Shown here: piece after piece, positions 1 to 35,362 of the stretch
Numbering within the stretch: the first letter of the stretch is position 1
Layout of the letters: each line of letters begins with the position of its first letter
Source of the DNA: a virus
Strand: one strand, 5' to 3'
Virus record (IMG/VR): IMGVR_UViG_3300009537_000082
Coordinates: 1-35,362 of that record
Length of the DNA stretch: 35,362 nucleotides
Translations under genes and position numbers: made by a program
The notes under the pieces: generated by a model
Told to the model about the DNA's origin: nothing
What the model saw: only the letters and a program-made list of their open reading frames with translations
Databases searched by the model: none

Positions 1-99
1 GGGGAATCTTCAACAGTGATACAAGGTATCCCATCACGATCTTCTACGTTTTCAATGTTTTGCCAGCCTCCATCATTATCCAAATATAAAACTACATCA
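1..99. repeat. 99-nt terminal direct repeat, identical to 35264..35362 (circularisation overlap or short terminal redundancy)
   Basis: Base-by-base comparison shows 1-99 equals 35264-35362. Unique sequence length is 35263 nt. Confidence 0.95.
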
Positions 100-858: not shown

Positions 859-889
859 TTGACATGGTAAAAAGTATTTATGCTATACT
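859..889 (+). promoter_or_regulatory. sigma70-type promoter with extended -10 (TTGACA, 19-nt spacer, TGcTATACT)
   Basis: TTGACA at 859-864 and TGCTATACT at 881-889. The 13-mer TTATGCTATACTT is shared with the minus-strand promoter at 32222-32250. A 12-nt direct repeat GTAAAAAGTATT lies at 849-860 and 867-878. Confidence 0.5.
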
Positions 890-895
890 TCTATC

Positions 896-1012
896 ACATC
901 TAGTTCCTTCTCCCAAGAAACCACTAGATATTTCAATCTTACCCCATGTTGTTTTCACTAGCAACTAAGATTGTAAGCCGTACCCCTAGCGGTGAAACTA
1001 GGGGATTTTATT
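896..1012 (+). ncRNA. candidate small non-coding RNA (about 117 nt, or about 152 nt if it reads to the second terminator)
   Basis: Predicted start near A896, 7 nt after the -10. Hairpin 1 is ATCTAGT/ACTAGAT (898-929). Hairpin 2 is CAATCTTA/TAAGATTG (934-973). The terminator hairpin is at 983-1012. The only ORF is 38 aa and has no RBS. Confidence 0.4.
983..1012 (+). terminator. rho-independent terminator (plus strand)
   Basis: CCCCTAG-cggtgaaa-CTAGGGG followed by ATTTTATT. Confidence 0.6.
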
Positions 1013-1208
1013 CATCACTTTTGCCGGACTCACCCTCCGGCTTTTTTAATCCCATGTAAATTGAATCGCTTGATTGTGAAATAACAACATCGCCAATCTT
1101 CAGTTTTACTTTAATTTTTGCTGGCTCATCAAACATTGGACAATCCGTTTCAACATCAACAGAGAGGTTGTCAGCTAGGTATTTTATAACATCATCAAAT
1201 TCACTCAT
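1008..1208 (-). CDS. hypothetical protein (66 aa from ATG 1208; GTG 1217 is an alternative start)
   Basis: ORF track entry 1008..1217. AAGGTGA and GGAGGG lie upstream. The first codons and RBS are identical to those of the next gene (25-nt repeat). Confidence 0.6.
   Translation of the reverse strand: MSEFDDVIKYLADNLSVDVETDCPMFDEPAKIKVKLKIGDVVISQSSDSIYMGLKKPEGESGKSDE
1023..1047 (+). terminator. second rho-independent terminator (plus strand), antisense inside CDS 1008..1208
   Basis: GCCGGA-ctcaccc-TCCGGC followed by TTTTTT. On the minus strand the hairpin is preceded, not followed, by the homopolymer run. Confidence 0.6.
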
Positions 1209-3391: not shown

Positions 3392-3586
3392 TTATTTCTC
3401 CCCCTTCAATATCTCCAAGAGAGCATTACCAACCTTCCAAGATGGGTTTGTGGTTTTGCCTAGCTTTAAATTAGAAATAAGGTCTTGTGTTACCCCCGTC
3501 TTTTTTTCGATGTCTTTCTGGGTCATGCCGCGAGCTTGTATCTTATTAATAATCGCGCACCAGTCCTTATTTTTTAATTTCTTCAT
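3392..3586 (-). CDS. Cro/XRE-like helix-turn-helix transcriptional regulator (64 aa)
   Basis: GMTQKDIEKKTGVTQDLISNLKLGK is a typical HTH_3-like segment. The gene is transcribed divergently from the plus-strand block. Confidence 0.7.
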   Translation of the reverse strand: MKKLKNKDWCAIINKIQARGMTQKDIEKKTGVTQDLISNLKLGKTTNPSWKVGNALLEILKGEK

Positions 3587-8710: not shown

Positions 8711-9009
8711 ACGGAAAGAAGCCGACCAAGGCAGAAACTAAATGGATTGAGTCTATTGTTGAGTACGGTTGCGTTGTTTGTCGTAATGAGGGAAAGCATA
8801 CGCCGCCACAAGTTCACCATATCAATGGCAGCAAAAAAGAAGGGTGTCATTTTGATACCATTCCGCTTTGCTATTATCACCACCAAGGCCACAATGATGA
8901 CTCGGCGTACACGTCAAGGCATCCATTTAAAGCGAGATTCGAGGAAAGATACGGCACAGATTTAGAGTTGTTAGCACAGATTAGAGAGGAGTTAGCGGCA
9001 CGATCTTGA
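8707..9009 (+). CDS. Ref-like HNH nuclease (RecA-dependent nuclease family)
   Basis: CVVC...VHHING...IPLCYYHHQG...SRHPFKARFEERYG matches the P1 Ref-type pattern. The only available start is TTG 8707, which overlaps the upstream TGA. Confidence 0.7.
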   Translation: MNGKKPTKAETKWIESIVEYGCVVCRNEGKHTPPQVHHINGSKKEGCHFDTIPLCYYHHQGHNDDSAYTSRHPFKARFEERYGTDLELLAQIREELAARS

Positions 9010-9033
9010 TTTATGGCGACAAATGTCTACAAT
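9006..9033 (+). promoter_or_regulatory. sigma70-like promoter (TTGATT, 16 nt, TACAAT)
   Basis: Hexamers at 9006-9011 and 9028-9033. The spacer contains GACAaaTGTC. Confidence 0.4.
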
Positions 9034-29768: not shown

Positions 29769-30277
29769 CTCCTTGCACCGTGATTCTCATGAAATCCATA
29801 CTCAATCTCTGCTGATTTTCTAGTGCACATAGCCTCAAATTTATCTAAGAAATAACCAAGATGAATACTTTTCCCTTTGACGGCTATTTGTGAATGCCAC
29901 TTTCCATACCTGTCATACCATCTAACGCCAACCACTCCAGATACATTGTCTTTTCTTAGAGGGACATTTTTACTATTCTCTAAAAACCCAACTTCTCTCA
30001 GGTTTTCTATTCGATTATCTATTCTGTCATGGTTAATATGATCAACCTGATCTTTCGGCCACCTTTTATGATTAAGCAGCCAAACTAAACGGTGTGTCTT
30101 ATAGTTAACACCAAACAATCTAACTACCCGGTAGTTATGTGAGTCAATAGTTCCAGACTCCCCATCCATAGGAGCATTAGATCCTCTGCTGACCCTATTA
30201 TATATTTTTCCTCCAACCTCATAAAGAAAGGCGCTTACCTCTTCATAAGTTGGTAGCTTGCTCTCTTCGTGCGCCAT
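29765..30277 (-). CDS. HNH homing endonuclease with an AP2 DNA-binding domain
   Basis: HRLVWLL...VDHINHDRIDNRIENLR (HNH_3) followed by SGVVGVRWYDRYGKWHSQIAVKGKSIHLGYF (AP2). Confidence 0.8.
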   Translation of the reverse strand: MAHEESKLPTYEEVSAFLYEVGGKIYNRVSRGSNAPMDGESGTIDSHNYRVVRLFGVNYKTHRLVWLLNHKRWPKDQVDHINHDRIDNRIENLREVGFLENSKNVPLRKDNVSGVVGVRWYDRYGKWHSQIAVKGKSIHLGYFLDKFEAMCTRKSAEIEYGFHENHGARR

Positions 30278-30493
30278 TTAAGCCACATTTTTTGTAGATG
30301 GCTGTTTGACTTTGTAGTTGTTGCCAAGACTACCGCAATACCCAATCCCGTCCAGTCGCTCGATTAAACATACCCGCTTGTCAGCTCCGTCAACCAGATC
30401 TTTGAATTTGCTTGATTTGCAGCGCGGCAATGGTTTTGTGTTCATCATGTTTGAGCAATTAACACATAATTTGTCAGCTTGTTCATTAGTCAT
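30278..30493 (-). CDS. hypothetical Cys-rich protein (71 aa)
   Basis: ORF track. Cysteines at CVNC...C...C...YC. Confidence 0.55.
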   Translation of the reverse strand: MTNEQADKLCVNCSNMMNTKPLPRCKSSKFKDLVDGADKRVCLIERLDGIGYCGSLGNNYKVKQPSTKNVA

Positions 30494-30538
30494 ATAATTT
30501 TCCTTTTTGTTAGTTTAGCATATATTTGATTATTCTAC

Positions 30539-30955
30539 TTAGTTAAAGGTTAATACATCAATCGTTAAATGTACGACCGCATCAGGATATGGCGCAAACA
30601 ATACGCTAACGGCCTTATATTTAATTACCGGCACTACAAAAGGAAGTACGTTACCCATTGAATATCCTGTTATTAGTCCGGCCTTTAGCCCTAATGTTAC
30701 CTTGCCCACCGGCCACTCGTACCCAATAGCCACATAATTAGAGGTGTTATATTCGCTGTTCTTATATCCGCCCACCTGGACATAATCGAACTGCTTGTCT
30801 TTTACGTAAGATTTAAGGGCTAACCCGTAGTTTCTTTCGTTGTAATTGGCTGCCCGGTTCTCGTGATAGCTAAATGTGTGTACTTGGATAACTGTTTCAG
30901 CCATGGCATAGAAGCAAAACCCAAAGAATAGAACTAAACCTGTTATTATTTTCAT
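30539..30955 (-). CDS. secreted or outer-membrane beta-rich protein with a Sec signal peptide
   Basis: MKIITGLVLFFGFCFYAMA/ET looks like a signal peptide. The mature part has alternating beta-strand patterns and aromatic girdle residues, and ends in F-N. It resembles small proteobacterial outer-membrane proteins, by eye. Confidence 0.6.
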   Translation of the reverse strand: MKIITGLVLFFGFCFYAMAETVIQVHTFSYHENRAANYNERNYGLALKSYVKDKQFDYVQVGGYKNSEYNTSNYVAIGYEWPVGKVTLGLKAGLITGYSMGNVLPFVVPVIKYKAVSVLFAPYPDAVVHLTIDVLTFN

Positions 30956-31245
30956 ATTGCCTCCATATCAATTAGTATTTCATCTAAAGAGCTAACAATG
31001 CGATAATGCCCTTTCCACTCACTCTCAAGCCGTTTCTGGCTCGCTTTCTTCTTTGACTCTAACACTAGCCCTGTTTTCTTACTTACCGCGCTATCGCTTT
31101 TGAGTTCGTACCATAACGTCTTTCCGTTGTATCCAATTAAAAAATCATCGTGGCCTAGCTCTACACTAACGCCTAGTTTTCGTAATGCTTTGACTATTTC
31201 ATTCTGGTTCAAATCACAGTTAGCGGCATATTTAGGTTTACCCAT
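30952..31245 (-). CDS. PD-(D/E)xK nuclease (VRR-NUC / Holliday-junction-resolvase-like)
   Basis: DLNQNEIVKALRKLGVSV...DDFLIGYNGKTLWYELK gives D...ExK. ATG 31245 is preceded by CAGAAGATA and overlaps the upstream TAA. The track start is 31281. Confidence 0.6.
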   Translation of the reverse strand: MGKPKYAANCDLNQNEIVKALRKLGVSVELGHDDFLIGYNGKTLWYELKSDSAVSKKTGLVLESKKKASQKRLESEWKGHYRIVSSLDEILIDMEAI

Positions 31246-31469
31246 TATCTTCTGCCCCTTCTCTTCTTTGGTCGCCTGCAAACTTCACAGCGACATTCTC
31301 CTTTATCGGGCAGCTTACCAACTGAAGACTCACCTTTCGACAACCTAAATTCACCTGTAAAGCCAATTTCATCTCTTAATCTGACAACATCGGCAATAAA
31401 TTCCCGGTCGAACATGGGGTATATTTTGAGTATTGCGGTTATCTTTTCATCCAGAGTCTTAAAGTTCAT
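31245..31469 (-). CDS. hypothetical protein (74 aa from ATG 31469), basic C-terminus with CxC..C
   Basis: Track ORF 31245..31487 starts at GTG. ATG 31469 lies 2 nt after the upstream stop. Confidence 0.5.
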   Translation of the reverse strand: MNFKTLDEKITAILKIYPMFDREFIADVVRLRDEIGFTGEFRLSKGESSVGKLPDKGECRCEVCRRPKKRRGRR

Positions 31470-31471
31470 AC

Positions 31472-31756
31472 TTATAATTTCGCGCACTCATCACAGGGAC
31501 AATAAGGAGCGTGGATAAACCCTGCATATTCAGAATCAACCACAACCTTTTTGGCTTTCTTAGTGCAATGCAATTCTGCACAAGCCCATGATACAGACCA
31601 GCACCTCCATGCCAACTCAAGATTCCAATCATTATAATCACCATTATTTTTCCGATCTAAACAATTAAAGCTTTTATAGTGAGATTCAAATTCACGCCTG
31701 ACAACACGCTCATCATGTCCTTCAGTTTTTAGTCTTTCAATAGTCTTATTTGTCAT
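31472..31756 (-). CDS. hypothetical Cys/Trp-rich protein (94 aa)
   Basis: ORF track. C-terminal CPCDEC. Confidence 0.6.
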   Translation of the reverse strand: MTNKTIERLKTEGHDERVVRREFESHYKSFNCLDRKNNGDYNDWNLELAWRCWSVSWACAELHCTKKAKKVVVDSEYAGFIHAPYCPCDECAKL

Positions 31757-31920
31757 TTTGGTCGCTCCAGTCCCTTTACTATTCTTAACGTTTCAAGTTT
31801 TATCAATTTCTGTATCTTCGGCCAGCTTTTAGGTAAAACCCAGATATTCTTTTCAACATATCCGGCCTTACGTTTATTAGCTCGTCTTATTCGTTTACTT
31901 TCTGCTGCTGATTTACTCAT
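31753..31920 (-). CDS. small basic protein, paralog of 34448..34582 (candidate DNA-binding regulator)
   Basis: From ATG 31920 it reads MSKSAAESKRIRRANKRKAGYVEKNIWVLPKSWPKIQKLIK. It aligns with MKSAAELKRIQREKKRKEGFILKQLWVKPESWKKIQKFIK. Confidence 0.6.
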   Translation of the reverse strand: MSKSAAESKRIRRANKRKAGYVEKNIWVLPKSWPKIQKLIKLETLRIVKGLERPK

Positions 31921-32215
31921 CAATCCACGCTTCCCAACTACCAACGCAGTCATATTTAACCTTGTTTACTGTCACCCTGAAATCTCTACAGCTAGTAGGC
32001 CTATCCTGCCGTTCAACATAATAACCAGCCTCAATTAAAATTAGTCTGATTTCCTTTAATAGCTTTCTTTCGTTGTTCTCGACTGAAAAATCATGCGCAT
32101 AATCTAAAGCATCAACCACATCACATTCACACGTACCTATAAAATAATAGATTTCGGATTTAAGCTGCGCCGATACAGAATTATTAATTAATTGTTTAAC
32201 CTTTTCTCTATTCAT
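31913..32215 (-). CDS. hypothetical protein (100 aa), first gene after promoter 32222-32250; probably leaderless
   Basis: ORF track. The ATG lies exactly 6 nt downstream of the -10 hexamer and there is no SD. Confidence 0.65.
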   Translation of the reverse strand: MNREKVKQLINNSVSAQLKSEIYYFIGTCECDVVDALDYAHDFSVENNERKLLKEIRLILIEAGYYVERQDRPTSCRDFRVTVNKVKYDCVGSWEAWIDE

Positions 32216-32221
32216 AAGTTA

Positions 32222-32250
32222 AGTATAGCATAAGACATGTCTTATGTCAA
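32222..32250 (-). promoter_or_regulatory. near-consensus sigma70 promoter (TTGACA, 17 nt, TGcTATACT) with an 18-bp perfect palindrome in the spacer
   Basis: Minus strand reads TTGACA (32250-32245), then spacer, then TATACT (32227-32222). The palindrome CATAAGACATGTCTTATG is at 32229-32246. Confidence 0.7.
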
Positions 32251-32265
32251 GAAGTCATTTAGGGT

Positions 32266-32871
32266 TTATTTTTCAAAAACTAAAAAATAGCTGTGGAATA
32301 TTCTTGCGTGTTTCTGAACTTTTAACTTTGTGCCTTTTTGTTGTGGTATTGCCATTCTGGATTTTGCAGGCAAGATAAATAAATCTTTAAGTCTTAAACC
32401 GTGCTCTTTCGCCCATTCGATGACATTATTATGAGTGCAGTGCATTTTATGGTTATGAATAATATCTTGACACTTAAAAACTAAAATTCCTTTCTTCATT
32501 AACACTCTTGCGGCCTCTTTTAACGTTCCAATGTAATGAGTTTCTAGTTCGTCATATCTCCAATACCCGCCAAACCGTTTAGCCATGACCATATTGCCGT
32601 TGCCTTCCCTTGCGTTTTTTATATACGTTAGGAACGGCGGATCGAAAACTAAACTGCTTATACATGAGTCAGTCAAAGGTAATTTACTGCTACACGCGCT
32701 TATTACCCCGTTAACTTGTGGTAATATATCAAACTTAAATGCTGGCTCAGGCATCTCTTTATAAAAACTCCCGTTCCCATAAGATATATCAGCATCAAAA
32801 TTATTCAGGTTATTCAGGCTAAGGATACTTTTAAGTATGTCTGCCTGTTTGCTTTCTACTGACTTAATCAC
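32266..32871 (-). CDS. putative SAM-dependent DNA methyltransferase (DPPF motif IV)
   Basis: FDADISYGNGSFY is a motif I-like G-loop. It is followed by LVFDPPF and LKEAARVLMKKGILVFKCQD. The family was not identified. Confidence 0.5.
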   Translation of the reverse strand: MIKSVESKQADILKSILSLNNLNNFDADISYGNGSFYKEMPEPAFKFDILPQVNGVISACSSKLPLTDSCISSLVFDPPFLTYIKNAREGNGNMVMAKRFGGYWRYDELETHYIGTLKEAARVLMKKGILVFKCQDIIHNHKMHCTHNNVIEWAKEHGLRLKDLFILPAKSRMAIPQQKGTKLKVQKHARIFHSYFLVFEK

Positions 32872-33118
32872 TTTCCCTGCGCGCCCCTAACCTTGCCGAC
32901 CACTCACTTTCTGGAAGTACAACCTTTCGTCTGTCGTCAATAAACTCACACAATAAGGCAAGATGGGATAAAAACATCAATACTGCGAAACACTCCCATA
33001 AAGTCGTATTATCAGTGGTTAAAGCAAATACTAAAGCGATAGCGGATAAAGATACTGAACCAACAAAGAACTTAATGTATCTTGATGATGATAGTAGGAT
33101 ATTAATCTCGTCGTGCAT
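32864..33118 (-). CDS. hypothetical membrane protein (84 aa, 2 TM helices)
   Basis: ORF track. Hydrophobic helices FFVGSVSLSAIALVFAL and FAVLMFLSHLALL. Preceded by the conserved 22-nt leader. Confidence 0.65.
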   Translation of the reverse strand: MHDEINILLSSSRYIKFFVGSVSLSAIALVFALTTDNTTLWECFAVLMFLSHLALLCEFIDDRRKVVLPESEWSARLGARRESD

Positions 33119-33148
33119 TATCTTCTCCTATAGAGTTATGCTGGTCAC

Positions 33149-33277
33149 TCATATTAACCACCAAATTAACAACCCAATTAAAGAGGTTATAATAAAAAAC
33201 CTTAATAATAAAATTGTCATCATAAATCTAAATCTAGGTCTATTATGTAAATAAGCTAAAATAAGCTGGTCTATCAC
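33149..33277 (-). CDS. candidate small membrane peptide (42 aa with GTG start, or 24 aa from the internal ATG)
   Basis: GTG at 33277 sits at the same distance from GGAGAAGATAA as the ATGs of neighbouring genes and overlaps the upstream TGA. The C-terminus is MMTILLLRFFIITSLIGLLIWWLI. Confidence 0.35.
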   Translation of the reverse strand: MIDQLILAYLHNRPRFRFMMTILLLRFFIITSLIGLLIWWLI

Positions 33278-33528
33278 TTATCTTCTCCTATATAGTTAAG
33301 GGTTTTATCTATTCCAAAACAATCCTTGCCTGATAAGCCATTATCAACGAAAGCGTACTTATATAATTTATCGTAAGCCTCAACCAACTCAGCCTTGTCC
33401 TTTTGGAGTTGTTCAATTTTTCTACTTGCTTCCATATAGCGCGAATACCGCTGCATTTTATCTATTTCTGAGTTATCCCATAATTCAGGCGGCATATTTA
33501 AAACGCCATGCAACATTAAATCACTCAT
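33274..33528 (-). CDS. hypothetical coiled-coil protein (84 aa), paralogous segment with 34143..34436
   Basis: ORF track. The shared segment is IEQLQKDKAELVE versus IEQLQTDKVELVE, with about 31/37 nt identity, plus a shared ..GED C-terminal motif. Confidence 0.65.
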   Translation of the reverse strand: MSDLMLHGVLNMPPELWDNSEIDKMQRYSRYMEASRKIEQLQKDKAELVEAYDKLYKYAFVDNGLSGKDCFGIDKTLNYIGEDK

Positions 33529-33558
33529 TTATCTTCTCCTATAGAGTTATGTTGGGTT

Positions 33559-34164
33559 TTAACTAACACCTTTATTAAAATCAACGGCCATTTGCTTGGC
33601 ATCTTCCATTGTTTTTGCTGTCCATTCACCTTTGCCGCACTTAATTTCAGTATAATTATCTTCAAACAAAGTCATTTCTGGCAAGCTGTCGAGATTTTCT
33701 AAATCTTCCACAATATTTTCCATTGTCGTCATTGGCAACTTTATTGGGGTATGGAGTATTCTTATTCCACTTCTGTCCGGCAATACCTGACATTCTGCTC
33801 GGTGTTGTTCTGCACATTCTTTGCTTATGTCGGCAAAGAAGTTTGCGTGGTCTTCTATCATTTCTTCGGGTGTGCTGGCTATATAATGACAATCACCTTT
33901 TTTACAGGTTGAGCCAATTTCAAAGCCGTAAATAGCTCTATGGCTCCATCCATACCACTTGTTATCTTTTGGACTAAACCCAACGCCGTGTGTTAATTCT
34001 TCTGTTATTTCCCTTTCGGCCAAGTATTTAATATTATCTTCCATGCCGACTAAAGTTATATAACTACCATCAAATTTGCTCCTGTACTCTTCTGTTCCTT
34101 TAGATAACGACTTTAGAGAGGGAACTACATAAGCAACCTTCTCTAAATACTTTTTAATATCCAT
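33559..34164 (-). CDS. hypothetical protein (201 aa)
   Basis: ORF track. No motif recognised. Confidence 0.65.
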   Translation of the reverse strand: MDIKKYLEKVAYVVPSLKSLSKGTEEYRSKFDGSYITLVGMEDNIKYLAEREITEELTHGVGFSPKDNKWYGWSHRAIYGFEIGSTCKKGDCHYIASTPEEMIEDHANFFADISKECAEQHRAECQVLPDRSGIRILHTPIKLPMTTMENIVEDLENLDSLPEMTLFEDNYTEIKCGKGEWTAKTMEDAKQMAVDFNKGVS

Positions 34165-34436
34165 TCATCTTCACCTACAGAGTTAATTAGGGCTTTAATT
34201 TCTCCGTACATTAATTCTTCTTCATCTTCCCAATTATCAGGATGAATATGTATTAAATCTAATGACTGCCCGAGCTTTTCAACCAGCTCAACCTTATCCG
34301 TTTGGAGTTGTTCTATTTGTTTTTCAAGCACACCTTCCCGTCTTAAAAGTTTAGGGTTTTTATTCTCACATAGCCGTGACACTGTACAGCCTCGTTCGCA
34401 TCGTTCCCCATCTGTACAAAAAATTCTATCACTCAT
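34143..34436 (-). CDS. hypothetical Cys-rich coiled-coil protein (97 aa)
   Basis: ORF track. RBS is GGAGG. The N-terminus has CTDGERCERGC...C. Confidence 0.65.
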   Translation of the reverse strand: MSDRIFCTDGERCERGCTVSRLCENKNPKLLRREGVLEKQIEQLQTDKVELVEKLGQSLDLIHIHPDNWEDEEELMYGEIKALINSVGEDEWILKSI

Positions 34437-34447
34437 CCTCCATACTC

Positions 34448-34582
34448 CTATTCCTTCAAACTCTTAATGAATTTCTGTATCTTTTTCCACGACTCAGGCT
34501 TTACCCACAATTGTTTCAAGATAAAACCTTCTTTACGCTTCTTTTCGCGCTGTATTCTTTTTAGTTCTGCTGCTGATTTCAT
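34448..34582 (-). CDS. small basic protein (44 aa), paralog of 31753..31920; probably translated from a leaderless mRNA
   Basis: Translation is MKSAAELKRIQREKKRKEGFILKQLWVKPESWKKIQKFIKSLKE. The ATG lies 6 nt after the -10 TACACT. No SD. Below the track cutoff. Confidence 0.55.
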   Translation of the reverse strand: MKSAAELKRIQREKKRKEGFILKQLWVKPESWKKIQKFIKSLKE

Positions 34583-34588
34583 GGTTTA

Positions 34589-34617
34589 AGTGTAGTCTAG
34601 GACATGTCTATAGTCAA
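34589..34617 (-). promoter_or_regulatory. sigma70 promoter (TTGACT, 17 nt, TACACT) with a GACATGTC palindrome in the spacer
   Basis: Minus-strand hexamers at 34617-34612 and 34594-34589. The core palindrome is at 34601-34608. The architecture is the same as at 32222-32250. Confidence 0.6.
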
Positions 34618-34748
34618 GTATTATTTTCGGCATAATCAATCAATATCTGCTCAATAAACGCTAATTCGTTATCTTCCCCTGACTCTTCAGATAGCTTTAC
34701 TAATTTGTCAGATATTTCTTTGGTTAGTTCTAGTCTGTATTCAATCAT
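34614..34748 (-). CDS. hypothetical acidic small protein (44 aa)
   Basis: AGGAAA upstream. Translation is MIEYRLELTKEISDKLVKLSEESGEDNELAFIEQILIDYAENNT. The stop TGA lies inside the -35 of the downstream promoter. Confidence 0.45.
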   Translation of the reverse strand: MIEYRLELTKEISDKLVKLSEESGEDNELAFIEQILIDYAENNT

Positions 34749-34761
34749 TGTCTTTTCCTGT

Positions 34762-35070
34762 TTATTTTATAAATTGGCTAACTAATCCAGAAAACATATT
34801 AATCATCGTGTCGTGCTGTCTGTGGTCATAAACAAACAAGTAATCGCTATCGCAATCATGCCTGTCATGCCTTACCCTCATTTCTAACGCGCATATCTCA
34901 AATAGCTCATGGCAAATGAGCATAAACATCTCACTAATATCGTTTCCTTTTGTACCTATTTTTATTTCTTTGGTCCCATAACTAAAGCTGGCAGAATAAA
35001 TAGAGCTGTCCCACTTGACAGTAAAGTTATATGAATTAACTTTTAAACTTCTAATTTTTTTTATGTTCAT
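34762..35070 (-). CDS. hypothetical protein (102 aa)
   Basis: ORF track. HELFE is not a true HExxH motif. Confidence 0.6.
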   Translation of the reverse strand: MNIKKIRSLKVNSYNFTVKWDSSIYSASFSYGTKEIKIGTKGNDISEMFMLICHELFEICALEMRVRHDRHDCDSDYLFVYDHRQHDTMINMFSGLVSQFIK

Positions 35071-35242
35071 CTTTCATCCTATTTATTTTACTGTTGCGCC
35101 AAGCCCAAGCGTCATCATAATTATTTGTTTCTTTCGACTCATATCCACATTTTTTACAAATAGACTTCCATAAATCTTCTTGTAGATCATGGTGCAGCCT
35201 GGTATCAGTGCTTTTACATTTAGGGCATTTATCGTATTTCAT
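35051..35242 (-). CDS. zinc-ribbon protein (63 aa)
   Basis: CPKC...(17 aa)...CKKC. Confidence 0.6.
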   Translation of the reverse strand: MKYDKCPKCKSTDTRLHHDLQEDLWKSICKKCGYESKETNNYDDAWAWRNSKINRMKDEHKKN

Positions 35243-35244
35243 AT

Positions 35245-35362
35245 CTAGCTTTCAGAAAAAAGCGGGGAATCTTCAACAGTGATACAAGGTATCCCATCAC
35301 GATCTTCTACGTTTTCAATGTTTTGCCAGCCTCCATCATTATCCAAATATAAAACTACATCA
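35245..35362 (-). CDS. 3' part of the junction-spanning small ORF (same gene as 1..146)
   Basis: Stop TAG at 35245-35247. Bases 35264-35362 duplicate 1-99. Confidence 0.55.
   Translation of the reverse strand, partial: DVVLYLDNDGGWQNIENVEDRDGIPCITVEDSPLFSES
35264..35362. repeat. 99-nt terminal direct repeat, right copy
   Basis: Identical to 1-99. Confidence 0.95.

What the first reader, a model, noticed from the sequence alone, without database searches (positions are those of the whole stretch)
32216..32250. Near-consensus promoter carrying an 18-bp perfect palindrome, with a twin at 34589-34617
The minus strand reads TTGACA, then a 17-nt spacer, then TGcTATACT. The spacer and the edge of the -35 are occupied by the perfect palindrome CATAAGACATGTCTTATG (32229-32246).

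A second promoter 2.4 kb away (34589-34617) reads TTGACT, 17 nt, TACACT. It has the same core, GACATGTC, at the same place in the spacer (34601-34608).

A palindrome inside the spacer is the classic position for a repressor that blocks RNA polymerase. The two sites therefore look like operators of one dimeric regulator controlling two early transcription units. A plus-strand promoter at 9006-9033 carries GACAaaTGTC in its spacer, which has the same half-sites at a different spacing.
Basis: seen in the sequence. Interest (0 to 1): 0.65.

Follow-up and report, generated by a model that had tools for sequence, protein, structure and literature searches.

The report
Phage promoter operator with tiny autoregulator
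Two strong phage promoters carry the same 8-bp palindrome GACATGTC, and each sits in front of a gene for a tiny basic protein that travels with this palindrome in about twenty other phages, so it is very probably a self-controlling switch for early, anti-defence genes built from an undescribed DNA-binding protein family.

Summary
P1 (32250..32222, minus strand) reads TTGACA-17-TGcTATACT and contains the 18-bp palindrome. P2 (34617..34589) reads TTGACT-17-TACACT. Both have GACATGTC at spacer positions 4-11.

Within the window this is only mildly unusual: 2 copies against 0.41 expected. The comparative evidence is what settles it.
- Each promoter lies upstream of one of two paralogous small basic proteins (44 aa and 55 aa, 64% identical).
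- In 23 independent metagenomic or viral loci with a homologue, 19 carry exact GACATGTC upstream. Three more carry GACATGAC.
- The site is almost always in the spacer of a sigma-70-like promoter. There are 0 copies downstream and 1 copy in 151 kb of control loci.

Seven other loci keep this geometry.

The third site, GACAaaTGTC at 9018-9027, is at chance level and is not conserved.

The protein family has no Pfam model and no solved relative. It includes about 470 clusters, some fused to HNH or GIY-YIG nucleases. The logic resembles Arc/Pant and CopG/Pcr. Binding and repression are inferred, not shown.

The parts
32222..32250 (-). Promoter P1: -35 TTGACA (32250-32245), 17-nt spacer, extended -10 TGcTATACT (32230-32222)
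   Evidence: 11/12 match plus TG, the best in the window. A near-identical promoter occurs in L036.
32229..32246 (.). 18-bp perfect palindrome CATAAGACATGTCTTATG. Its conserved core GACATGTC (32234-32241) is the proposed operator O1.
   Evidence: Only the 8-bp core (10 bp in many loci) is conserved across the family.
34589..34617 (-). Promoter P2: -35 TTGACT (34617-34612), 17-nt spacer, -10 TACACT (34594-34589). The -35 overlaps the TGA stop codon of upstream ORF 34614..34748.
34601..34608 (.). GACATGTC core, the proposed operator O2. It sits at the same spacer position as in P1.
34448..34582 (-). 44-aa basic protein (P0002), a canonical family member with GFILKQLWVKP. It is the proposed autoregulator. 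Its ATG lies 6 nt after the P2 -10 and there is no Shine-Dalgarno sequence, so a leaderless mRNA is predicted.
   Evidence: AF2 pLDDT 90 with helix-strand-helix. The same geometry occurs in L016, L019, L023, L025, L026, L027 and L033.
31753..31920 (-). 55-aa paralogue (P0001), 64% identical to P0002. It is the second gene of the P1 unit, and its start overlaps the stop of ORF100 (ATGAGTAA). It diverges in the otherwise near-invariant strand (GYVEKNIWV).
31913..32215 (-). 100-aa ORF, first gene of the P1 unit. Its ATG lies 6 nt after the -10. The homologue in L036 (59% identical from Met1) has a 12-nt Shine-Dalgarno-bearing leader segment that is missing here.
32266..34436 (-). Cargo of the P2 unit: a 97-aa ORF (34143..34436), a Tad6-like Thoeris inhibitor (33559..34164), two 84-aa ORFs (33274..33528 and 32864..33118), and a DNA methyltransferase (32266..32871).
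   Evidence: Pfam Tad6, E = 2.3e-38; phrog_24333 DNA methyltransferase, E = 3e-79..

Best explanation
GACATGTC is the operator of a phage-encoded, roughly 45-residue basic DNA-binding protein. In this genome the protein has two paralogues, at 34448..34582 and 31753..31920.

The proposed sequence of events is as follows.
1. Host sigma-70 RNA polymerase fires the near-consensus promoters P2 and P1 early in infection.
2. P2 yields a leaderless mRNA whose first product is the small protein itself. Anti-defence cargo follows: a Tad6-like Thoeris inhibitor and a DNA methyltransferase.
3. P1 yields a leaderless 100-aa ORF, with the paralogue translationally coupled behind it.
4. As the small protein accumulates, it binds the 8-10 bp palindrome between the -35 and -10, probably as a dimer. 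This blocks or destabilises RNA polymerase and shuts both units down, producing a negative-feedback pulse.

What is shown and what is inferred:
- Shown: the sequences, the paralogy, and family-wide co-occurrence of gene, motif, promoter position and leaderless geometry.
- Inferred: that the protein binds the site, that it binds as a dimer, and that the effect is repression.
For: 1. Paralogy: one paralogue lies downstream of each promoter.

2. Gene-to-motif test:
- 19 of 23 non-redundant loci with a homologue (40-88% identical, 37-63% GC) carry exact GACATGTC upstream: 21 sites in 59 kb.
- There are 0 sites in 56 kb downstream and 1 in 151 kb of control loci.
- The binomial tail is about 3e-20.
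- Three of the four loci without an exact upstream copy (L017, L030, L039) have GACATGAC in a promoter-like context. So does L029, whose only exact copy lies inside a large opposite-strand gene.

3. Unbiased 8-mer count: GACATGTC is the top word upstream, found in 16 loci against a background maximum of 5-6.

4. Motif-to-gene test: a promoter-plus-motif pattern scan of viral contigs returned one locus, and that locus carries the gene.

5. Fixed geometry: TTGACx, 3-4 nt, GACATGTC, 5-6 nt, then the -10. Flanking positions carry about 0 bits, so the core is held by selection rather than recent ancestry.

6. DNA-binding role of the domain:
- It is fused C-terminally to HNH_3 and GIY-YIG nucleases, and it occurs in tandem.
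- 24 of 117 distant members weakly hit the N-terminal two thirds of PF11455, MazE-like antitoxin.
- K8, R12 and R16 are invariant or near-invariant on one helix face.

7. Promoter strength: near-consensus hexamers with 17-nt spacers need no activator.

8. Paired operators: L016 and L019 carry two operators 22-23 bp apart, about two helical turns.

9. Precedents for this logic: CopG/Pcr and Arc/Pant (PMC2724298), and ArtA binding ACATGACATG as a single dimer (PMC2777438).
Against: - There are no binding, transcription-start or expression data. Everything comes from metagenomic sequence.
- No structural or significant sequence match to a known repressor was found.
- The AF2 monomer is helix-strand-helix, not the ribbon-helix-helix order.
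- The P1 paralogue differs at two near-invariant strand positions (E22, N24), so it may not bind the same site.
- Loci were chosen by presence of the gene, so linkage of the gene to the motif could in principle reflect a co-transferred cassette bound by another factor.
- The operator variant GACATGAC does not track any obvious protein substitution.
Confidence: 0.68

Rival explanations
1. The small protein binds GACATGTC but acts positively or architecturally rather than as a repressor. Examples are positive autoregulation, promoter remodelling, or a roadblock or anti-roadblock for read-through transcription.
For: - Co-occurrence data show linkage, not the sign of regulation.
- The -10 elements in GC-rich relatives are weak (TAGGAT, TAGGGT, CACACT) and might benefit from help.
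- P1 and P2 are internal to a long co-directional gene array with no terminator just upstream.
Against: - Spacers are 17-18 nt, not the 19-20 nt typical of MerR-type spacer-binding activators.
- The window promoters are near-consensus.
- The site fills the spacer face that sigma-70 holoenzyme must approach.
- Known small proteins with this gene-first arrangement (CopG, Arc) are repressors (PMC2724298).
Confidence: 0.13
2. The palindrome is bound by some other factor, either a host transcription factor or the Cro-like HTH (3392..3586). The small basic gene merely travels with the promoter as a mobile cassette.
For: - The cassette looks mobile. L003 has the upstream acidic ORF but lacks both P2 and the small gene.
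- The terminase relatives L002 and L003 lack the module.
- The window does encode an HTH protein.
Against: - The motif is invariant in genomes of 37-63% GC from evidently different hosts, which argues against a host factor.
- Where the promoter is separated from the small gene, the intervening ORFs are not a single family. One group (window P1, L036, apparently L017 and L021) shares the ORF100 family, and others have different ORFs. The small gene is the only gene common to all loci by construction.
- Half-site centres 4 bp apart are too close for a typical HTH dimer. This is an inference from general knowledge.
Confidence: 0.08
3. GACATGTC is a DNA-level target for mobility. It would be a homing-endonuclease or recombination site linked to spread of the promoter-gene cassette, and its position in the promoter would be incidental.
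For: - The same domain is fused to HNH and GIY-YIG nucleases.
- The cassette is present or absent among related phages.
Against: - The stand-alone proteins have no nuclease domain.
- The site has a fixed register relative to the -35 and -10 in about 20 divergent promoters. A mobility target alone does not explain that.
Confidence: 0.06
4. The two palindromes are a chance similarity, or they act as RNA hairpins or terminators.
For: Within the window alone the excess is modest: 2 copies against 0.41 expected, and 3 of 100 shuffles reach 2.
Against: - Family-wide statistics argue against chance.
- The RNA folds are weak: -5.8 and -1.9 kcal/mol, with z-scores of -0.76 and +0.42.
- No U-tract follows either site.
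Confidence: 0.02

Closest known systems
P22 immI: Arc repressor acting on Pant (and Pmnt)
   Same: - A tiny phage protein (53 aa) encoded as the first gene of the operon it represses.
- The operator overlaps a strong promoter.
- It gives early shut-off of a transiently needed function (PMC2724298 for the Arc/Pant description).
   Different: - Arc is a ribbon-helix-helix protein that binds a 21-bp operator as a dimer of dimers.
- Here the site is an 8-10 bp single palindrome.
- The AF2 model is helix-strand-helix.
- There is no profile similarity to Arc.
pMV158 CopG acting on Pcr
   Same: - A 45-aa autorepressor and first gene of its operon.
- It has a short pseudo-symmetric element with 4-bp inverted boxes overlapping promoter elements.
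- It blocks RNA polymerase access (PMC2724298).
   Different: - It is a plasmid copy-control system.
- CopG is a bare RHH whose operator spans about 50 bp and takes four dimers.
- There is no sequence similarity.
pSK41 ArtA
   Same: - A small regulator with an N-terminal basic extension.
- It binds a CATG-containing 10-bp site (ACATGACATG) as one dimer, over promoter elements of several operons including its own (PMC2777438).
- The PartA operator even contains GACATGTC.
   Different: - ArtA has a true beta-alpha-alpha RHH fold.
- Its site is a direct rather than inverted repeat and lies over the -35.
- No sequence match was found in the PDB profile searches.
Pfam PF11455 MazE-like antitoxin (formerly DUF3018)
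   Same: - It shares a basic helix followed by a G-x-x-x-x-x-W-V-P strand.
- 24 of 117 distant family members hit profile positions 2-47 of 65.
- Antitoxins of this kind typically autoregulate through promoter palindromes (general knowledge).
   Different: - All hits are below the Pfam cut-off: 14-17.5 bits in the itemised hits against a cut-off of 22; best E-value among the 24 is 1.3e-4.
- The window proteins give no hit at all.
- There is no C-terminal toxin-binding tail and no toxin gene.
Lambda cI from PRM (leaderless mRNA)
   Same: Transcription is predicted to start at the A of the regulator's own ATG, and there is no Shine-Dalgarno sequence (geometry).
   Different: - cI is a 237-aa HTH repressor expressed from an activated maintenance promoter.
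- Here the promoter is strong and probably early.
- The start site is predicted, not mapped.

Membership tests
Sigma-70-type promoter | -35 and -10 hexamers close to TTGACA and TATAAT, with a 16-18 nt spacer | tested here: met
   P1 matches 11/12 and has TG. P2 matches 9/12. Both have 17-nt spacers.
Sigma-70-type promoter | A transcription start mapped 6-8 nt downstream of the -10 | not testable with these tools
   This needs 5'-RACE or dRNA-seq. The conserved spacing of 6 nt between the -10 and the ATG in 8 of 9 direct-type promoters (7 nt in L025) is indirect support.
Leaderless mRNA | The start codon lies at or within a few nt of +1, with no Shine-Dalgarno sequence | tested here: met
   - The ATG lies 6 nt after the -10 at P1 and P2, leaving no room for a Shine-Dalgarno sequence.
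- The N-termini are conserved from Met1.
- The same geometry is seen in 7 other loci.
- This is geometry only. The start site is unmapped.
Autoregulated repressor-operator pair (Arc/Pant or CopG/Pcr type logic) | A palindromic site overlapping the core promoter of the operon that encodes the regulator | tested here: met
   GACATGTC lies in the spacer of the promoter upstream of the small-protein gene in the window (twice) and in about 20 other loci.
Autoregulated repressor-operator pair (Arc/Pant or CopG/Pcr type logic) | The protein binds the site and lowers transcription | not testable with these tools
   This requires EMSA, footprinting and reporter assays.
Ribbon-helix-helix (Arc/MetJ/CopG) superfamily | Beta-alpha-alpha topology: an N-terminal strand followed by two helices | tested here: not met
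   - The AF2 model (pLDDT 90) has helix 4-18, a short strand within 20-27, and helix 29-43.
- Only one helix follows the strand.
- This is a monomer model only.
Ribbon-helix-helix (Arc/MetJ/CopG) superfamily | Detectable sequence or structure similarity to known members | tested here: not met
   - hhalign against Arc and CopG gives probability below 1%.
- There are no PDB sequence hits.
- There are no Foldseek PDB hits.
Pfam PF11455 MazE-like (DUF3018) | A score above the Pfam gathering threshold of 22 bits | tested here: not met
   - The window proteins give no hit at E <= 0.1.
- Distant relatives that were itemised score 14-17.5 bits; the best E-value among the 24 hits is 1.3e-4.
- The similarity is remote at best.
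Toxin-antitoxin module | An adjacent toxin partner, and an antitoxin with a toxin-neutralising region | tested here: not met
   - In 8 loci the small gene stands alone directly behind the promoter.
- The neighbouring genes differ from locus to locus.
- The protein is only about 44 aa.

The most novel reading that the evidence does not exclude
The roughly 45-residue protein may found an undescribed minimal DNA-binding fold. It would be helix-strand-helix, possibly a permuted ribbon-helix-helix or a basic-helix clamp. It would read one almost invariant 8-bp word, GACATGTC, in phages of hosts from 37% to 63% GC. It would be expressed from leaderless mRNAs, would time a pulse of anti-defence gene expression (Tad6, methyltransferases, Lar, Mom neighbours), and has been re-used as the targeting domain of HNH and GIY-YIG homing endonucleases.
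Probability: 0.35. Interest if true: 0.7.

Novelty: new variant of a known kind. Interest (0 to 1): 0.55.

Why it matters
If the protein binds the site as proposed, the pair gives several things:
- a portable, very small repressor-operator module: a 44-aa protein, an 8-bp site and a near-consensus promoter;
- a function for a family of about 470 unnamed protein clusters;
- a sequence handle (a promoter carrying GACATGTC) for locating early or anti-defence transcription units in uncultivated phages;
- natural examples of conserved leaderless expression of a regulator.

The regulatory logic itself, negative autoregulation at the promoter spacer, is classical. The advance is a new protein family and regulon, not a new principle.

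Tried and rejected
- Megablast of 30000-35362 against GenBank phages gave no match.
- tblastn of the 44-aa protein against GenBank phages gave only two E = 0.8 hits, in a Tn7-like context in an Acinetobacter phage assembly. These are not informative.
- The genome-contig scan with the family profile found no confirmed relative. No host assignment was possible.
- P0003's contig could not be retrieved.
- The terminase relatives L002 and L003 have a different early region without the module. Synteny-based conservation of P1 and P2 could not be tested there.
- PDB sequence searches and Foldseek against PDB found nothing meaningful.
- hhalign against Arc and CopG found nothing.
- AF2 on the natural tandem-domain protein P0158, used as a proxy for a dimer, gave pLDDT 57 and is unusable.
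- The RNA hairpin or terminator reading of the palindromes is rejected.
- The third site GACAaaTGTC is rejected as at chance level and not conserved.
- No second, helically phased operator was seen by eye next to P1 or P2. One-mismatch copies elsewhere in the window are at chance.
- No link was found between the operator variant GACATGAC and protein substitutions.
- The 27-nt repeats looked like a T7-like phage-RNAP promoter. I set this aside because no RNA polymerase gene was found among the large ORFs.
- A scan for the putative sRNA promoter in viral contigs gave one unrelated locus.

Full report
**1. The observation**

Read on the minus strand, the window has these features.
- P1 is TTGACA (32250-32245), spacer TAAGACATGTCTTATGC, then TATACT (32227-32222). 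A TG two bases ahead of the -10 gives an extended -10.
- The 18-bp perfect palindrome CATAAGACATGTCTTATG spans 32246-32229.
- P2 is TTGACT (34617-34612), spacer ATAGACATGTCCTAGAC, then TACACT (34594-34589).
- GACATGTC occupies spacer positions 4-11 in both promoters.

The plus-strand site is TTGATT, a 16-nt spacer, then TACAAT (9006-9033), with GACAAATGTC at 9018-9027.

Within the window the signal is modest.
- GACATGTC occurs twice against 0.41 expected, and 3 of 100 shuffles reach two copies.
- One-mismatch copies are exactly at chance.
- Promoter-like hits are no more frequent than in shuffles. P1 is the best match in the window.
- GACANNTGTC occurs once, and 22% of shuffles do as well.

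**2. What surrounds the sites**

The window is a circular assembly, because positions 1-99 equal 35264-35362. The genome is about 35.3 kb.

It is a podovirus-like phage.
- It encodes a portal/adaptor, major head protein, tail protein, internal virion protein, tail fibre and endolysin.
- It also encodes NinB, a Ref-like nuclease and an exonuclease.

Both promoters lie inside the long minus-strand gene array.

Two things stand out immediately downstream of the promoters.

First, the ATG of the next ORF lies exactly 6 nt after the -10 at both promoters: TATACT-TAACTT-ATG and TACACT-TAAACC-ATG. There is no room for a Shine-Dalgarno sequence. The A of the ATG is therefore the expected +1, and the mRNAs should be leaderless.

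Second, each promoter is followed by a paralogue of one small basic protein.
- At P2 it is the first gene (34448..34582, 44 aa).
- At P1 it is the second gene (31753..31920, 55 aa). Its start overlaps the stop of a 100-aa ORF (ATGAGTAA).
- The two proteins are 64% identical over 39 residues.

Between P2 and P1 lie a Tad6-like Thoeris inhibitor (Pfam E = 2.3e-38) and a DNA methyltransferase (PHROG E = 3e-79), plus small ORFs. This is anti-defence cargo typical of early regions.

**3. Comparative test**

A promoter-plus-motif pattern scan of viral contigs returned a single locus, L001/L018. It reads TTGACA-TTAGACATGTCTTGTGT-TATACT. An ORF follows, and then an ATGAGTAA-overlapping homologue of the small basic protein.

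Searching in the other direction, from the protein, gave more loci.
- Viral and metagenome scans contributed 13 loci, L016-L028, one of which (L018) is the contig of L001.
- Contig look-ups for database homologues contributed the rest of the set.

The results across these loci are as follows.
- Of 23 non-redundant loci (37-63% GC, proteins 40-88% identical), 19 have exact GACATGTC upstream of the gene: 21 sites in 59 kb.
- There are no copies in 56 kb downstream and 1 copy in 151 kb of control loci that lack the gene. The binomial tail is about 3e-20.
- Three of the four loci without an exact upstream copy (L017, L030, L039) have GACATGAC in a promoter-like context. So does L029, whose exact copy lies inside a large opposite-strand gene. 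L031 shows no copy within the 4 kb fetched upstream.
- An unbiased count of all 8-mers in the 700 nt upstream ranks GACATGTC first, in 16 loci. Its overlapping derivatives follow. Unrelated words reach only 5-6 loci.

The geometry is fixed: TTGACx, 3-4 nt, GACATGTC, 5-6 nt, then the -10. In two loci the motif overlaps the -35 itself as TTGACATGTC. Positions flanking the core carry about 0 bits (the core itself was the anchor). The promoters have therefore diverged completely except for the polymerase elements and this word.

Two architectures recur.
- Direct: the -10, then 6 nt (7 nt once), then the ATG of the small gene. This occurs at window P2 and in L016, L019, L023, L025, L026, L027 and L033.
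- Indirect: a promoter, a Shine-Dalgarno-bearing leader, one to three ORFs, then the small gene. This occurs in L017, L018, L020-L022, L024, L032, L036, L038 and L039.

L016 and L019 carry two copies 22-23 bp apart, about two helical turns.

L036 has a promoter almost identical to window P1 and a first ORF 59% identical from Met1. It keeps a 12-nt Shine-Dalgarno-bearing segment that the window lacks. P1 therefore became leaderless through a small deletion.

**4. The protein**

- The family has no Pfam model and only a weak PHROG hit of unknown function.
- All about 70 close database members are unnamed.
- A profile search of 1.84 billion representatives finds 469 clusters at E <= 1e-3.
- AF2 with a 55-sequence alignment gives pLDDT 90: helix 4-18, a short strand within 20-27, and helix 29-43.
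- Foldseek and PDB sequence searches find nothing.
- Near-invariant residues are K8, R12 and R16, which lie on one helix face, and G19-x-x-L-K-Q-I-W-V-K-P-x-x-W.

Two lines point to DNA binding.
- The domain is found C-terminal to HNH_3 and GIY-YIG nuclease domains and in tandem copies. That is the usual position of homing-endonuclease targeting modules (general knowledge).
- 24 of 117 distant members give sub-threshold hits to the N-terminal two thirds of PF11455, MazE-like antitoxin.

There is no similarity to Arc or CopG. The predicted order of elements is not beta-alpha-alpha. I therefore do not file the protein as a ribbon-helix-helix protein.

**5. Mechanism**

The most economical reading is a negative-feedback early switch.
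1. Host polymerase fires P2 and P1.
2. The leaderless first cistron of P2 is the regulator itself.
3. The regulator then occupies the palindrome between the -35 and -10 and shuts down its own unit and the P1 unit.

The half-sites GACA and TGTC are directly abutting. This suits a two-stranded ribbon or a pair of basic helices, and it is too compact for a conventional HTH dimer. That is why I favour the small protein over the Cro-like HTH at 3392..3586. This last point is an inference.

The logic matches CopG/Pcr and Arc/Pant (PMC2724298). ArtA shows that a small protein with a basic N-terminal arm can bind a 10-bp CATG-rich site as a single dimer at promoters (PMC2777438).

What is shown is linkage, position and conservation. 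Binding, stoichiometry and the sign of regulation are inferred.

The P1 paralogue departs from the family at two near-invariant strand positions, L22E and Q24N. It might bind differently or modulate the canonical paralogue.

**6. Rivals**

- An activating or architectural role cannot be excluded from sequence. It is disfavoured by the optimal spacers and near-consensus hexamers.
- A host factor is unlikely given the invariance of the word across very different GC contents.
- A mobility target is suggested by the nuclease fusions and by presence or absence of the cassette among relatives. It does not explain the fixed promoter register.
- Chance and RNA-hairpin readings are refuted.

**7. Third site**

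GACAAATGTC at 9018-9027 is at chance level. It is absent from the corresponding intergenic region of L002. No family-linked promoter shows an expanded core. I regard it as unsupported.

**8. Verdict**

- The operator is the 8-bp core.
- The likely regulator is a new family of about 45-aa basic proteins encoded right behind the promoters.
- The units are predicted to be leaderless.
- The cargo is anti-defence.

The regulatory principle is classical. I rate this a new variant of a known kind and of moderate interest.

Noticed in passing
window 1-99 and 35264-35362: The two ends are 100% identical over 99 nt. The window is therefore a circularly closed assembly of about 35,263 bp. The minus-strand gene array runs from the Cro-like gene (3586) across the junction and on to about 9265.
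   Followed up: partly
window 33559-34164 (-) and 32266-32871 (-): There is a Tad6-like type I Thoeris inhibitor (Pfam PF25188, E = 2.3e-38) and a DNA methyltransferase (phrog_24333, E = 3e-79) between the two promoters. Family-linked loci elsewhere often carry methyltransferases, Lar restriction-alleviation, Mom or SpoU-methylase genes nearby.
   Followed up: partly
window 859-1047 (+): This looks like a candidate small RNA gene.
- Promoter: TTGACA (859-864), a 19-nt spacer, then TGcTATACT (881-889).
- Transcript: about 150 nt, ending at two intrinsic terminators (983-1004 and 1023-1041, each followed by a T-run).
- Fold: -40.8 kcal/mol, z = -4.87.
- Conservation: the promoter and the 5' hairpin (ATCTAG...CTAGAT) are conserved in L036:45-250.
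- The -35 reads TTGACATGGT (TTGACATGTT in L036), a degenerate copy of the operator in the register seen in L028 and L035.
- There is no Rfam hit.

   Followed up: partly
window 33118-33144, 33278-33304, 33529-33555, 34165-34191: A 27-nt repeat family reads CCAGCATAACTCTATAGGAGAAGATAA on the minus strand and lies directly before the start codons of four early genes. It superficially resembles a T7-type promoter, but no phage RNA polymerase gene was found. The GGAGAAG in the repeat is complementary to the CUUCUCC in the loop of the candidate sRNA's 5' hairpin. That link is speculative.
   Followed up: partly
window 32216-32221, compared with L036:2080-2100: Relative to the near-identical promoter in L036, the window lacks a 12-nt segment (CAAGAGGTGAAA) that carries the Shine-Dalgarno sequence. 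This puts the ATG of the homologous first ORF at the predicted +1. It looks like a recent switch from leadered to leaderless.
   Followed up: yes
P0097, P0140, P0130, P0158, P0177 (database proteins, not in the window): The roughly 40-aa domain occurs at the C-terminus of HNH_3 and GIY-YIG nucleases, and as tandem duplicates. This suggests re-use as a modular DNA-targeting domain.
   Followed up: partly
window 34614-34748 (-), compared with L003:2678-2800: The acidic 44-aa ORF just upstream of P2 has a homologue in the terminase relative L003. There it is followed directly by another gene, with no P2 and no small basic gene. The promoter-plus-regulator unit therefore behaves as an insertable cassette. 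In the window the P2 -35 overlaps this ORF's TGA stop codon.
   Followed up: partly
window 31913-32215 (-): The 100-aa first ORF of the P1 unit has a clear homologue in L036 (59% identical). By eye, the first ORFs in L017 and L021 look related as well. In these loci it precedes the small basic gene, so the two may form a recurrent cassette. There is no Pfam or PHROG assignment.
   Followed up: partly
window 30539-30955 (-): A 138-aa protein with an apparent signal peptide matches a PagP-like lipid A acylation moron family (phrog_3600, E = 8e-15). This hints at a Gram-negative host.
   Followed up: no
window 31753-31920 (-): The P1-linked paralogue has E and N where more than 90% of the family has L22 and Q24 (GYVEKNIWV against GYVLKQIWV). 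It also has an 11-residue C-terminal extension. It may have altered specificity or act as a modulator.
   Followed up: no
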